Shown: positions 13,604 through 15,794 of the stretch, one piece after another
Position numbering within the stretch: the stretch's first letter is position 1
How the letters are laid out: the number at the start of each line of letters is the position of its first letter
Source: a virus
Strand: one strand, 5' to 3'
Length of the DNA stretch: 64,000 nucleotides
Virus record (IMG/VR): IMGVR_UViG_3300033981_002321
Span: 1-64,000 of that record
Translations under genes and position numbers: made by a program
Notes under the pieces: generated by a model
The model's database searches: none
Told to the model about the DNA's origin: nothing
Seen by the model: only the letters and a program-made list of their open reading frames with translations

Positions 13604-13879
13604 GTGGCCGTTAAAACAAGCATTCTAAAAAGACTCGTAACTCAGCTAAGACGGAACGGAATGTCAGAGGCTGCGGCAAATGCAGCAGCCAGAAGTAGAT
13701 TGCAAAAAGCTGGGATACTCAAGAAGGGAAGTGATGAACTAACGGAATATGGCAAGAAAAGACAGGCAATGGGGGCGGCTGGCAGAGCCAAAGATCGAGC
13801 AGCAAAGGCAAGTGGCAGAAAACCGAGTGAATATAAATATAACGCTAAAACCAATAGAGCGACGCTGAAGAAAAAATAA
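13604..13879 (+). CDS. Small very basic protein
   Basis: K/R/A-rich, 91 aa. Confidence 0.7.
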   Translation: MAVKTSILKRLVTQLRRNGMSEAAANAAARSRLQKAGILKKGSDELTEYGKKRQAMGAAGRAKDRAAKASGRKPSEYKYNAKTNRATLKKK

Positions 13880-13896
13880 ACGGATCATGGCGCGAC

Positions 13897-13925
13897 TTGA
13901 CAAAGAAAAGACTGCGTGATAGAAT
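13897..13925 (+). promoter_or_regulatory. Strong sigma70 promoter
   Basis: TTGACA-17 bp-TAGAAT with extended TG. Confidence 0.8.
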
Positions 13926-13955
13926 TAGGAGGTCAAGTTTCTTAACTTCTCAAAC

Positions 13956-14204
13956 ATGAAAGGATCTTTGCATTTTACCGGCAGTCAAGACAGCGAAACA
14001 TTTATTGGAAAGCTTGTAAATGTGGTAGTTTCCATTAAAAACAAAGGGGAATCGAAAAGAGTTATTTGGCATCAGCCAGTTCGAGATCAGCTCTGGTGGT
14101 TTGGCTTTCAGCCCGAGAAAGGATGCTTTGGGCGCATTCGCTGGTTCAACTCGGACCAAGACGAGGGCTCATGGGGCAGGGTCTTTCTTTCACGCAATCC
14201 GTGA
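13956..14204 (+). CDS. Hypothetical Trp-rich small protein
   Basis: ORF track, directly after the promoter. Confidence 0.55.
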   Translation: MKGSLHFTGSQDSETFIGKLVNVVVSIKNKGESKRVIWHQPVRDQLWWFGFQPEKGCFGRIRWFNSDQDEGSWGRVFLSRNP

Positions 14205-14210
14205 TAGAAT
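14200..14210 (+). promoter_or_regulatory. Extended -10 promoter for the putative ncRNA
   Basis: CGTGATAGAAT, identical to the 11-mer in promoter 13897-13925. Confidence 0.6.
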
Positions 14211-14215
14211 CCCTG

Positions 14216-14605
14216 AGCGACTCAAAGCCCCTACCGGGCCGTAGGCCGCAACAAAGACCTTGCTTCGGCGGCAAGGCGGTTTCCGGGGAGTTTGCCAGCG
14301 TTGCAGCCGGAAAACCTAGTAAATACTGGAAATGGAGACGGATGTTCGCCCGGTGAATTCAAAGTTTGTCATTAGCCATGGCATTTGTTCACCAACTTCG
14401 AGCTACCCGTCTTCGACACAACTCTCTCTTCGGCTCTGACCCCGTGCTAGACGCGGCAGTAGGAATCCCTGGGTTGTGGCTGCCGCTCTGCTACCAAGGA
14501 CGCTTGGTGAAGCATCGGGCATAAGTCCTGCTTCGGCAGGCCAGGGGGCTGATCACCCCTGCCAATCACGGAAAGACCCGAAGCTTCGGCCCTCGGGTCT
14601 TTCTT
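14216..14605 (+). ncRNA. Unclassified large structured non-coding RNA (~350-390 nt)
   Basis: No credible ORF; many nested helices with G-U pairs and UUCG loops; bounded by a -10 element and an intrinsic terminator. Confidence 0.7.
14571..14605 (+). terminator. Intrinsic terminator between the ncRNA and the convergent NTase gene
   Basis: GAAAGACCCGA...(GC-TTCG-GC)...TCGGGTCTTTCTT. Confidence 0.8.
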
Positions 14606-14615
14606 GTGTTTGCAG

Positions 14616-15404
14616 TTATCTAGCTTTTACAGTTTTGCACAGCAATCGATCGATAGGCTCAATTGTTCTTTTTTGCCCCGGACTGAAACCGTGAGCAGTG
14701 GTTTCAAAGTATGCAATTTTCTCATCAAGGAAATCATTGATTACTTGAATTCTCATCCCTCTGCCAAGCTCCTTCTGACTTTTCTTTCTTTCGAGCAAGA
14801 CCAAGATCTCTTTCAGTGCCGCTTCTGGCACATCGCATTCGTGCAGCAATTGCGCAAACAGCATAGGCGGGGATTTATGGTACTTCTCGATCCACATACA
14901 AGCAAGCACGGGGCGGAGAACGTAAAAGTATTTCTTCGTTCTGACCAAATCACTCTTCAGGTACTCCTTGAAGTTCTTTTTGGCCATGTGAATATAATGA
15001 TACACAGATGCTATCTCTGAAAAGCAAGACTTACTTAGTTTGTACAGCTCTTGATAGAAATCAAGATTAACCTTGTAGATCATTGGGGATCTAAGCCATT
15101 CCATGAGCACTGGATTGCCTTTATTTAGCAAAAACAGAGCTTTTCTAACATCCCAGCCAGAGTAGTCAAATTCATCTACGATCGGATATTCGATAACATC
15201 TCTGTCTGGTATGACCTTTAGATACCATTCCTCTTTGTGTCTGTAGATAAACCGCACATCGTAATCCGAGTCGGGGGATTCAAAACCCCAGGCCCTTGAA
15301 CCAGACTCTGCTGCGTAGAGAATCTCAACAGAATGTTCTTGCTCTATTTCAGATAATCGCGTGATTATCTTAGTGCAGTAATCGGAAGTGTCAGTTTGAA
15401 ACAT
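14616..15404 (-). CDS. Pol-beta superfamily nucleotidyltransferase, RlaP/YcgL (Nuc-transf) type
   Basis: ILYAAESGSRAWGFESPDSDYDVRFIY, D.SGWD.RKAL, NP..MEWL.SP, KKYFYVLRP; start moved to MFQTD. Confidence 0.9.
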   Translation of the reverse strand: MFQTDTSDYCTKIITRLSEIEQEHSVEILYAAESGSRAWGFESPDSDYDVRFIYRHKEEWYLKVIPDRDVIEYPIVDEFDYSGWDVRKALFLLNKGNPVLMEWLRSPMIYKVNLDFYQELYKLSKSCFSEIASVYHYIHMAKKNFKEYLKSDLVRTKKYFYVLRPVLACMWIEKYHKSPPMLFAQLLHECDVPEAALKEILVLLERKKSQKELGRGMRIQVINDFLDEKIAYFETTAHGFSPGQKRTIEPIDRLLCKTVKAR

Positions 15405-15794
15405 TTTCAAATACTGTCTAATAAACGGGAGGCAGGGGATCGCAGCATCGACGCACTTTCCAGTATTCAAATCTGTTAAGTGCAACACGCTCGTAAACGT
15501 GCTGAAGCTCTCCAAAGCGACTAAACTCGGGGACGCAGATCCAGTGTGACGGCGTTACTTTCATGGAAAGACCATCGTACGGGCCACCGATGAGTGAAAC
15601 TTCAGCGAACAAATCAGCCTGAGGCATTGTCAAGCAGTGCAGAGATTGCATATACCGGCCAGATGAATGGCCGCAAGAAAGCCAGTGCGATAGCCTGAGT
15701 GGTCAGCTTATCGAGTACCGAGAACAGCATCCACATAGCGAGGCAGCTGCTTCCGTAAAAGTAAACGTTCATTGAATTCCTTAAAGTGTTAGGG

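What the first reader, a model, noticed from the sequence alone, without database searches (positions are those of the whole stretch)
14200..14605. Candidate novel ~390-nt structured phage ncRNA with its own promoter and terminator
Seen: after an extended -10 (CGTGATAGAAT, a copy of the 11-mer in the strong promoter at 13897) comes a stretch with no credible ORF that is densely paired. Helices by eye: AGCCCCT 14226-32/GGGGGCT 14544-50 (long-range closing stem); CCTTGC 14258-63/GCAAGG 14271-76; GGTTTCCGG 14278-86/CCGGAAAACC 14307-16; GGAGACGG 14334-41/CCGTCTTC 14407-14 enclosing GGTGAA/TTCACC and TGTCAT/ATGGCA; CACAACT 14417-23/GGTTGTG 14472-78; ACCAAG-gacg-CTTGGT 14493-508; CCTGC-UUCG-GCAGG 14527-40; then a terminator at 14571-605. 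G-U pairs and UUCG loops point to RNA-level structure on the plus strand. I could not match it to tmRNA, RNase P, 6S, SRP or group I/II intron signatures. Inference: a large multi-domain phage RNA of an unrecognised class (ribozyme, decoy or scaffold).
Basis: partly seen in the sequence, partly recalled or inferred. Interest (0 to 1): 0.9.

Follow-up and report, generated by a model that had tools for sequence, protein, structure and literature searches.

The report
Modular hairpin-chain RNA gene of lake phages
This lake-water phage carries a real gene for a folded, non-coding RNA of about 390 bases that matches no known RNA family and recurs in at least 17 phage contigs; what it does is unknown, and the best guess is a decoy that binds a host protein.

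Summary
Window 14217-~14608 (+) has no conserved reading frame, folds better than shuffles on the + strand only, and follows a conserved extended -10 box. It ends in a conserved terminator.

I found homologues in 16 other contigs, six variant types at 71-89% identity. Ten of 74 scored base pairs keep pairing through changes on both sides. Fifty G-U cells against five A-C cells fix the strand as +.

No Rfam 15 family matches, and ARAGORN finds no tRNA or tmRNA.

There is no long-range closing stem. The RNA is a chain of local hairpin modules around a conserved core (14254-14562). The 5' module, an apical hairpin, a 47-nt 3' module and a duplicated hairpin are swapped or lost between phages.

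The RlaP neighbour and the "CCA tail" are not conserved. An 82-aa gene lies upstream in 4 of 6 types.

One sister type sits between two tRNA-like elements and carries a toxin-less, sub-threshold abiF-antitoxin-like hairpin. The window copy lacks it.

This scan has already noted sister copies of this family on other DNA.

Function is inferred only; the most likely reading is a protein-binding decoy or anti-defence RNA. No expression data exist.

The parts
13897..13925 (+). Strong upstream promoter (TTGACA, 17 nt, TG-n-TAGAAT). It drives the 82-aa gene, and with no terminator in between it can read through into the RNA.
   Evidence: 11 of 12 matches, TG present; sequence.
13956..14204 (+). 82-aa gene of unknown family, usually linked to the RNA. 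Its TGA stop lies inside the RNA's extended -10 box.
   Evidence: It lies directly upstream of the RNA in 4 of 6 variant types, at 56-85% amino-acid identity. It is absent upstream in the L002 and L157 types. No Pfam or PHROG family matches.
14202..14210 (+). Extended -10 promoter box TGATAGAAT with no recognisable -35.
   Evidence: Exact copy of the box in the 13897 promoter. TGnTAnnnT is kept in all variants (TGATACGCT in L154, TGCTATAGT in L157), 5-6 nt before GCGAC. In L002, homology to the window begins at 14197.
14217..14608 (+). Predicted RNA of about 390 nt. The start is inferred at the conserved GCGAC and the end in the U-tract after the terminator.
   Evidence: No transcript data exist.
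14217..14249 (+). 5' hairpin module (GCG...GCCC-loop-GGGC...CGC). It is replaced by an unrelated hairpin in the L157 type.
   Evidence: RNAalifold. The L154 version keeps the stem with a 4-nt insertion and has a longer closing stem. The L157 type has GCGACAG...CUGUCGC instead.
14258..14276 (+). Hairpin with a 7-bp stem and 5-nt loop.
   Evidence: Two pairs change on both sides.
14277..14333 (+). Most conserved segment, with near-invariant blocks. It contains the covarying helix 14295-14304/14319-14329.
   Evidence: Invariant blocks in A6. Pair 45-73 alternates G-C with A-U and pair 46-72 alternates C-G with U-A.
14334..14414 (+). Long irregular hairpin made of helices 14334-41/14407-14, 14344-48/14399-403 and 14352-56/14389-93. 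Its apical hairpin 14367-72/14378-83 is dispensable.
   Evidence: Five pairs change on both sides and 100% of cells are paired. A 25-nt apical stretch (about 14364-14388) containing the 14367-83 hairpin is deleted in the L154 and L157 types, leaving a 7-nt UUUCAAA loop.
14417..14478 (+). Nested hairpin made of helices 14417-24/14471-78, 14432-37/14462-67 and 14443-46/14452-55.
   Evidence: There are one-sided C-G/U-G and A-U/G-U changes and no double changes. Sequence is strongly conserved; the 21-mer pattern from this region recovered all variant types.
14482..14519 (+). Hairpin with a conserved internal loop (CCG-CUC-UGC...GCA-U-CGG) and a variable tip at 14493-14508.
   Evidence: The tip is replaced by different hairpins in the other variants. 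The whole unit is duplicated in tandem with tetraloops in the L157 type.
14527..14540 (+). Hairpin CCUGC-UUCG-GCAGG.
   Evidence: Stem is kept with U-A/U-G and C-G/U-G changes. The loop varies between UUCG and (A/G)UUU.
14542..14561 (+). Last core hairpin. The stem covaries and the loop keeps the palindrome UGAUCA.
   Evidence: Three pairs change on both sides among four variants. Stems differ in all six types, while the loop keeps UGAUCA (UGAUCG in L157).
14572..14612 (+). Intrinsic terminator with a 10-bp stem (14572-81/14593-602) and a U-rich tail. It is shared with the convergent minus-strand operon.
   Evidence: There is a compensatory A-U to G-C change in L004. The terminator is 93% identical in L154 although the body is 71% identical. 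The simple scanner missed it because the loop is 11 nt.

Best explanation
Window 14217-~14608 (+) is an independently transcribed gene for a structured non-coding RNA of about 390 nt.

Shown:
- It is non-coding.
- It folds on the + strand into a chain of about eight local hairpin modules.
- It has a conserved promoter box and a conserved terminator.
- It belongs to a small, unclassified family found in at least 17 lake-phage contigs.
- Within the family a conserved core (14254-14562) is combined with swappable 5' and 3' modules and moves between otherwise unrelated genomic contexts.

Inferred:
- The RNA acts in trans as a protein-binding decoy or sponge, presenting conserved loops and junctions on stable hairpins. 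These include the near-invariant 14277-14333 block, the UUCAAA apex and the UGAUCA loop.
- The most likely target is a host RNA-recognising defence or RNA-processing protein. One sister type adds a toxin-less abiF-antitoxin-like hairpin to the same core and sits among tRNA-like elements.
- The window copy carries only the core, so its direct target is unknown.
For: Non-coding: 2-6 stops in all six frames of every variant, frame-breaking indels and no codon periodicity.

Structure:
- z = -3.64 on + against -1.01 on -.
- On 7 distinct sequences, 97.8% of 499 cells pair (0 of 500 shuffles reach this).
- Ten pairs change on both sides, against 0-2 in the slid controls. The covariation score is 0.201, against 0.05-0.08 when slid.
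- With the four closest variants alone, 7 pairs change on both sides, against 0-3 when slid.

Strand: 50 G-U cells against 5 A-C cells. Pairing is 97.8% read on + and 88.8% read on -.

Own gene:
- The TGnTAnnnT box lies 5-6 nt before the conserved GCGAC in all types.
- The terminator is conserved and covaries.
- Mosaic breakpoints fall at 14197 and 14564.
- The RNA is the only constant across five different contexts.

Modularity:
- The 5' module is replaced.
- The apical hairpin is deleted.
- A 47-nt module is present or absent.
- One hairpin is duplicated.
- Metagenome contigs join the modules differently.

Unclassified: no Rfam hit at gathering score, and nothing meaningful at E<=10 in the window or in homologues.

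Decoy lead:
- L157:6980-7000 matches abiF RF03085 with an identical 11-nt loop (25.8 bits, E 0.034).
- A tRNA-like element follows it.
- No Abi_2 toxin gene is present in five of these phage records.
Against: - No transcript data exist, so the start, the end and expression itself are all inferred.
- The window copy has no abiF-like hairpin (no hit at E<=10).
- The abiF match in the sister copy is below the family's gathering score (25.8 against 37 bits) and covers 21 of 37 model positions.
- Only six variant types are known. Several helices (14417-78, 14482-519) show one-sided changes only, and the fold of 14277-14333 is not settled.
- Overall divergence of the RNA (11-15%) is no lower than third-codon-position divergence in the neighbouring RlaP gene (8-22%). 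The case for selection therefore rests on the pattern of changes, not on their rate.
- The host is unknown, so mimicry of a host RNA could not be tested.
- The RNA is absent from 47 of 48 capsid-related phage records, including 4 complete ones. It is therefore dispensable.
Confidence: 0.5

Rival explanations
1. The RNA is the partner of the 82-aa protein encoded just upstream. The two would form a phage ribonucleoprotein or a protein/RNA regulatory pair.
For: The 82-aa gene abuts the RNA in 4 of 6 variant types. It is conserved as a protein at 56-85% identity, with a nearly invariant C-terminal half, and its stop codon lies inside the RNA's promoter box. In L004 and L008 the only DNA shared with the window is the block 13605-14564, which holds two small genes plus the RNA.
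Against: The L002 and L157 types carry the RNA without this gene in the DNA held. The protein matches no family and no RNA-binding signature in Pfam, PHROGs or a PDB profile search. Its predicted model is unusable, at pLDDT 45.
Confidence: 0.15
2. The RNA is a substrate or cofactor of the convergent RlaP nucleotidyltransferase. This would be an RNA-repair or Y-RNA-like pair acting on a CCA-tailed 3' minihelix.
For: RlaP (PF10127, E 5e-88) lies across the shared terminator in the window, L002 and L003. RlaP adds 1-2 nucleotides to RNA 3' ends (PMC12776372). In the window the last hairpin is followed by GCCA.
Against: L004, L008, L154 and the L157 types have the RNA without an adjacent RlaP, and the 81%-complete L004 record has no RlaP at all. 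CCA follows the hairpin in only 3 of 6 types; L003 has CAC, L154 has AAC and L157 has CGG. The genome has no Ro60/TROVE and no RtcB, and there is no Y-RNA hit.
Confidence: 0.05
3. The RNA self-assembles, as a dimer or higher-order particle held by kissing loops, or is catalytic. Its function would then lie in its own architecture, as is suspected for the large phage-associated RNAs ROOL and GOLLD.
For: The last core hairpin keeps a self-complementary UGAUCA loop (UGAUCG, still self-pairing with wobble, in L157) while its stem changes in every variant. The optional 47-nt module adds a second hairpin with a UGAUCC loop. Blocks at 14277-14333 are near-invariant.
Against: TGATCA is over-represented 2.25-fold throughout this genome, so the word alone is weak evidence. 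There is no similarity to ROOL, GOLLD or any ribozyme family. A chain of freely swappable hairpins argues against one compact fold.
Confidence: 0.1
4. It is not a separate trans-acting RNA. It would be a structured 3' untranslated tail of the rightward operon, stabilising the upstream mRNA or insulating two convergent operons.
For: There is no terminator between the strong promoter at 13897 and the RNA. The RNA lies exactly at a convergent junction with a bidirectional terminator. The internal promoter has no -35 box.
Against: In L002 the RNA keeps its -10 box behind unrelated DNA. In L157 it stands between two tRNA-like elements with its own box and no upstream ORF in the transcript. About 300 nt of conserved sequence blocks with covarying stems is far more than a stabiliser needs.
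Confidence: 0.1

Closest known systems
abiF RNA motif (Rfam RF03085; RCd22 of C. difficile), the RNA antitoxin of AbiF/Abi_2 toxins (PMC12373285)
   Same: A sister copy of this family (L157:6980-7000) carries a hairpin whose 11-nt loop and flanks equal the abiF consensus. It has no toxin gene in the phage. Both are small structured RNAs presented on a stable hairpin.
   Different: The window copy has no such hairpin. The sister match is sub-threshold at 25.8 bits, against a gathering score of 37. The roughly 300-nt core shared by the family has no relation to abiF.
Pseudo-ToxI of phage PhiTE, where a phage RNA mimics a type III antitoxin (Blower et al. 2012; from my own knowledge, not read here)
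   Same: It is a phage-encoded non-coding RNA proposed to neutralise a host RNA-binding toxin by mimicry. This is the mechanism I infer.
   Different: Pseudo-ToxI is a tandem 36-nt repeat homologous to its target's antitoxin. Here no host counterpart of the core is known and there are no tandem repeats.
ROOL (RF03087) and GOLLD (RF01998), large phage-associated structured RNAs of unknown function
   Same: They are large, conserved, structured, phage-borne, lie outside coding genes and are sometimes near tRNA genes. Their function is unknown.
   Different: cmscan finds no similarity. This RNA is smaller (about 390 nt), narrowly distributed, and built as a chain of swappable local hairpins rather than one ornate fold.
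Bacterial Y RNAs (YrlA) with Rsr/Ro60 in RtcB-type RNA-repair operons
   Same: In both cases a structured RNA lies beside an RNA-repair enzyme gene (RlaP here), and sister loci contain tRNA-like elements.
   Different: There is no Ro60/TROVE, no RtcB and no Y-RNA match. The RlaP adjacency is not conserved.
Protein-sponge RNAs made of hairpin chains (CsrB/RsmZ type)
   Same: Both have a chain of hairpins, their own promoter and terminator, and a presumed trans action by protein binding.
   Different: This RNA has no repeated GGA-type loop motif. I counted seven GGA by eye in about 390 nt, which is close to chance. There is no Rfam match.

Membership tests
Any Rfam 15 family (4227 models) | Covariance-model score at or above the family's gathering score | tested here: not met
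   There were 0 hits in the whole window at gathering score. The best hit at E<=10 was psaA at 15.5 bits, against a gathering score of 50. There were 0 hits in homologue loci.
abiF RNA motif (RF03085) | Hairpin matching the abiF model, in its native setting upstream of an Abi_2 toxin gene | tested here: not met
   The window has no hit at E<=10. Sister copy L157 scores 25.8 bits against a gathering score of 37, over model positions 8-28 of 37. No Abi_2 gene is present in 5 phage records.
tmRNA / tRNA | tRNA-like domain with T-arm and acceptor stem; tag reading frame for tmRNA | tested here: not met
   ARAGORN finds no tRNA or tmRNA gene in the window or in 6 homologue loci. Rfam gives no hit in the window.
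Y RNA / YrlA-Rsr module | Ro60 (TROVE) gene in the genome and a Y-RNA stem plus tRNA-like domain | tested here: not met
   PF05731 is absent from the genome while the controls are positive. RtcB is absent. There is no Y-RNA hit.
RlaP-linked RNA (proposed RNA-enzyme pair) | Conserved co-occurrence of the RNA with RlaP and a conserved 3' NCCA minihelix | tested here: not met
   RlaP is adjacent in 3 of 6 types and absent from the L004 record. CCA is present in 3 of 6 types.
ROOL / GOLLD / OLE / raiA large RNAs | Match to the family covariance model | tested here: not met
   No hit at E<=10.
Unnamed modular hairpin-chain RNA family of lake phages (this scan) | Conserved core (window 14254-14562) with covarying stems, own TGnTAnnnT box before GCGAC, and variable end modules | tested here: met
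   Model R1 scores 177 bits on the window and 122 bits on the L154 and L157 types. Promoter spacing is shown.
Intrinsic (rho-independent) terminator | G+C-rich hairpin followed by a U-tract, at the 3' end of the unit | tested here: met
   A 10-bp stem at 14572-81/14593-602 is followed by a U-rich tail. It is conserved and carries a compensatory change.

The most novel reading that the evidence does not exclude
The family would be a new class of phage 'decoy-chassis' RNAs. A conserved structured core of about 300 nt, itself binding an unknown host factor or self-assembling through its palindromic UGAUCA loop, would serve as a stable carrier. Phages would plug interchangeable mimic modules onto it (abiF-antitoxin-like hairpin, tRNA-like elements, other hairpins of unknown target) to disarm RNA-targeting host defences. 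The window copy would be the bare chassis, implying that the core has an anti-defence or host-takeover activity of its own.
Probability: 0.2. Interest if true: 0.8.

Novelty: new variant of a known kind. Interest (0 to 1): 0.6.

Why it matters
Phage-encoded structured RNAs are far less explored than phage proteins, and very few have known roles. This is a comparatively well-supported new family: covariation, a defined strand, a defined promoter box and terminator, and 17 contigs.

Its modular make-up is unusual. The same core travels with different add-on hairpins, one of which resembles a bacterial antitoxin RNA. If the decoy reading is right, the family would show that phages assemble anti-defence RNAs from interchangeable parts, and it would give a handle for finding the host proteins they target.

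If the reading is wrong, the family is still an unclassified RNA worth adding to RNA family databases.

Tried and rejected
- Expression: the look-up of sequencing runs listed 24 lake-water DNA holders and no RNA holder, so expression could not be examined.
- The first metagenome pattern (two blocks) found nothing. The second found one more copy of the L154 type.
- Chance pattern matches were discarded:
  - L005, L007, L009, L011 and L012.
  - L122-L125, which lie in coding genes.
  - L136.
  - 19-21-nt matches in Tritonibacter, Sulfitobacter and Polaromonas genomes and in four metagenome contigs. About four are expected by chance.
- BLAST and covariance-model searches of 48 capsid-related phage records found the RNA only in the L004 contig.
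- tmRNA (including the permuted form), RNase P, 6S, SRP, Y RNA, riboswitches, ribozymes, ROOL and GOLLD gave no hits.
- The RlaP/CCA-minihelix idea was rejected for lack of conservation.
- A small conserved ORF inside the RNA was rejected: the open stretch at 14366-14524 changes frame and sequence between variants.
- Antisense targets of the two most conserved blocks elsewhere in the window: none beyond chance.
- The 11-nt direct repeat GGGTCTTTCTT at about 14179 and about 14593, considered as a target-site duplication, is not kept in the L004 or L154 types.
- The 82-aa protein gave nothing usable from several sources:
  - The ESM Atlas gave nothing usable.
  - The AlphaFold model had pLDDT 45 and was not searched further.
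  - The PDB profile search gave nothing significant.
  - By eye its C-terminus resembles the start of a cold-shock domain. That is from memory and no Pfam match backs it.
- The HIP1 octamer, tried as a cyanobacterial host hint, has 0 copies.
- The 47-nt module of L003, L004 and L154 is not an abiF match.

Full report
**What is there**

The window is part of a 75-kb IMG/VR phage record, estimated 94% complete. It encodes terminase, portal, scaffold and major head proteins. The nearest cultured capsids are only about 37% identical.

The flagged stretch lies at the junction of a rightward operon and a leftward operon. The rightward operon ends with an 82-aa gene at 13956-14204. The leftward operon begins with an RlaP nucleotidyltransferase gene at 14616-15515 (-), matching PF10127 at E 5e-88.

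**Check of the observation**

The 10-mer GTGATAGAAT occurs exactly twice in 64 kb, at 13916 and 14201. The first copy belongs to a near-consensus promoter. The second has no -35 box.

The 396 nt at 14210-14605 fold to -161.5 kcal/mol on the + strand (z = -3.64; 0 of 100 shuffles as good). The - strand gives z = -1.01.

Rfam 15 gives no hit at gathering score in the whole window. It gives only noise at E<=10 (best hit psaA, 15.5 bits against 50). ARAGORN finds no tRNA or tmRNA.

**Homologues**

Protein-anchored and pattern searches recovered the RNA in 16 further contigs. They fall into six variant types:

| Type | Loci | Identity to the window |
|---|---|---|
| window | own record | - |
| L002 | L002 | 89% |
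| L003 | L003 | 85% |
| L004 | L004, L008 | 86% |
| L154 | L154, L131, L128, L169 | about 71% |
| L157 | L157, L163 and L159, L160, L161, L162, L164 (near-identical cores) | about 72%, over 14254-14562 only |

L158 is a partial copy.

Covariance model R1 was built from the four close variants. It scores the distant types at 122 bits. It finds the RNA in only 1 of 48 capsid-related phage records and in none of the 4 complete ones. The RNA is therefore an accessory, mosaic gene.

**Not coding**

Every variant has 2-6 stops in each of the six frames. There are 1-nt and 4-nt indels. Substitutions show no 3-base periodicity (19/31/25). The longest open stretch changes frame and sequence between variants.

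**Structure and strand**

I scored a curated structure of 74 pairs on 7 distinct sequences:
- 97.8% of 499 cells pair, and 0 of 500 shuffles reach this.
- Ten pairs change on both sides, against 0-2 when the partners are slid.
- The covariation score is 0.201, against 0.05-0.08 when slid.

The four close variants alone give 7 pairs changing on both sides, against 0-3 when slid.

G-U cells outnumber A-C cells 50 to 5. Thirteen pairs alternate G-U with Watson-Crick pairs. Read on the - strand, pairing falls to 88.8%. The RNA is therefore on the + strand, in agreement with the promoter box and the terminator.

One caution applies. The RNA's overall divergence (11-15%) is no lower than third-codon-position divergence in the neighbouring RlaP gene (8-22%). 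The case for selection rests on the kind of changes, not on their number.

**Which helices hold**

Supported helices:
- 14258-64/14270-76, with two compensatory pairs.
- The long hairpin 14334-14414, with five compensatory pairs and 100% pairing.
- 14417-24/14471-78 with its two inner helices, showing one-sided changes only.
- 14482-14519, with a conserved internal loop and a variable tip.
- 14527-40.
- A local hairpin at 14542-14561.
- The terminator at 14572-14602.

These rest.

Not supported:
- The long-range closing stem 14226-32/14544-50. Each other variant breaks it, and the very same substitutions are compensated within the local 14542-61 hairpin.
- The helix 14278-86/14307-16. It is invariant except in L002, which breaks two pairs. 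It also crosses the covarying 14295-14329 helix. Only a short CCGG/CCGG pseudoknot would be sterically plausible, and that is my inference, not tested.

**Modularity**

Homology of L002 to the window starts at 14197, just before the -10 box. Homology of L004 and L008 covers only 13605-14564.

- L154 and L157 lack a 25-nt apical stretch (about 14364-14388) that contains the 14367-83 hairpin. They close the long hairpin with a 7-nt UUUCAAA loop.
- L003, L004 and L154 carry an extra 47-nt module before the terminator.
- The L157 type replaces the 5' hairpin with an unrelated one.
- The L157 type also duplicates the 14482-14519 unit in tandem.

These differences appear.

Metagenome contigs show still other joins, for example one skipping 14251-14409.

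All types keep TGnTAnnnT 5-6 nt before GCGAC. This places the start at about 14217. The start position is inferred.

**Neighbours**

The 82-aa gene is upstream in 4 of 6 types, at 56-85% identity. Its function could not be read.

RlaP is adjacent in 3 of 6 types and absent from the 81%-complete L004 record. CCA follows the last hairpin in 3 of 6 types. The proposal of an RNA-RlaP pair acting on a CCA-tailed minihelix, raised by earlier notes of this scan, is therefore not supported. The genome also lacks Ro60 and RtcB.

In the L157 type the RNA lies in a 650-nt non-coding island between two tRNA-like elements. ARAGORN does not call them. Rfam gives tRNA-Sec-like 24.7 bits and tRNA 15.2 bits, both below threshold.

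In that type the core is followed by a long hairpin whose 11-nt loop equals the abiF antitoxin consensus (25.8 bits, E 0.034, below the gathering score of 37). None of five phage records encodes an Abi_2 toxin.

This partly confirms earlier notes of this scan that sister copies carry a toxin-less abiF-like hairpin. The window copy does not.

**Mechanism**

Shown: a conserved, structured, modular, + strand non-coding RNA gene.

Inferred: it acts in trans by presenting conserved loops and junctions to a protein. The most likely role is a decoy against a host RNA-recognising defence or processing factor. Two precedents support this. One is the abiF-like and tRNA-like add-ons in sister copies. The other is the known case of a phage RNA mimicking a type III antitoxin (from my own knowledge).

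The self-complementary UGAUCA loop of the last hairpin is conserved while its stem changes in every variant. This allows loop-loop dimerisation. However, TGATCA is 2.25-fold over-represented in the whole genome, so this is only a lead.

Rivals are an RNP with the 82-aa protein, a self-assembling or catalytic RNA, a passive 3' tail of the upstream operon, and the RlaP pairing, which is largely refuted.

**Novelty**

The RNA is in no Rfam family. I found no paper describing such an RNA (searches were on related topics only).

The kind of element, a phage-borne structured RNA of unknown or decoy function, is known. This family and its module-swapping core are new.

Sister copies have already been noted by this scan on other DNA.

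Noticed in passing
L157:6480-7126 (also L160:3900-4500, minus strand): A 650-nt non-coding island holds two tRNA-like elements that ARAGORN does not call. The upstream one has the T-arm GGGGGTTCAAGTCCCTCC. The downstream one has a 7-bp acceptor stem, the T-arm GACGGTTCGATTCCGTC, an 11-nt 'anticodon' loop and no CCA. Two TGnTATAGT promoter boxes are also present, against 0.07 expected by chance.
   Followed up: partly
L157:6965-7010: A long hairpin of about 15 bp has a loop (CUCUCAACGAU) identical to the abiF antitoxin RNA consensus. The match is sub-threshold at 25.8 bits. No Abi_2 toxin gene is present in five phage records. A metagenome contig shows a variant of its stem.
   Followed up: partly
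window 13956-14204 and L154:7710-7958: The 82-aa protein of unknown family has a nearly invariant C-terminal half (EKGC-GRIRWFNSDQ-EG-WGRVF-SRNP). By eye this recalls the first strands of a cold-shock domain. No database supports the resemblance, and the predicted model is poor.
   Followed up: partly
window 13604-13879: A 91-aa Lys/Arg/Ala-rich basic protein travels with the 82-aa gene and the RNA as one block into the otherwise unrelated L004 and L008 phages.
   Followed up: no
whole window: Tetranucleotide palindrome bias is strong. GATC is 1.36-fold and TGATCA 2.25-fold over expectation. CTAG (0.34), GTAC (0.30), TATA (0.31) and ACGT (0.41) are avoided. This suggests restriction avoidance or a methylation-linked signal. 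There is no HIP1 octamer.
   Followed up: no
window 14251-14409, from read-laying run X22: A short, low-depth lake-metagenome contig joins the 5' module directly to 14410, skipping 159 nt that include the conserved block and most of the long hairpin. It may be another module combination or an assembly artefact.
   Followed up: no
L003:4900-5000, L004:2997-3047, L154:8297-8346: An optional 47-nt module lies before the terminator. It holds a hairpin with a UGAUCC loop whose stem covaries (CCAG/CUGG against ACUG/CAGU), followed by a GCGC...GCGC hairpin. It matches no Rfam family.
   Followed up: partly
window 14616-15515 (-): An RlaP-family RNA 3'-end nucleotidyltransferase stands alone in this phage, with no RtcB ligase or Ro60 in the genome. 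Its nearest homologues among cultured phages are about 40% identical, in jumbo Pseudomonas and Brevundimonas phages.
   Followed up: partly
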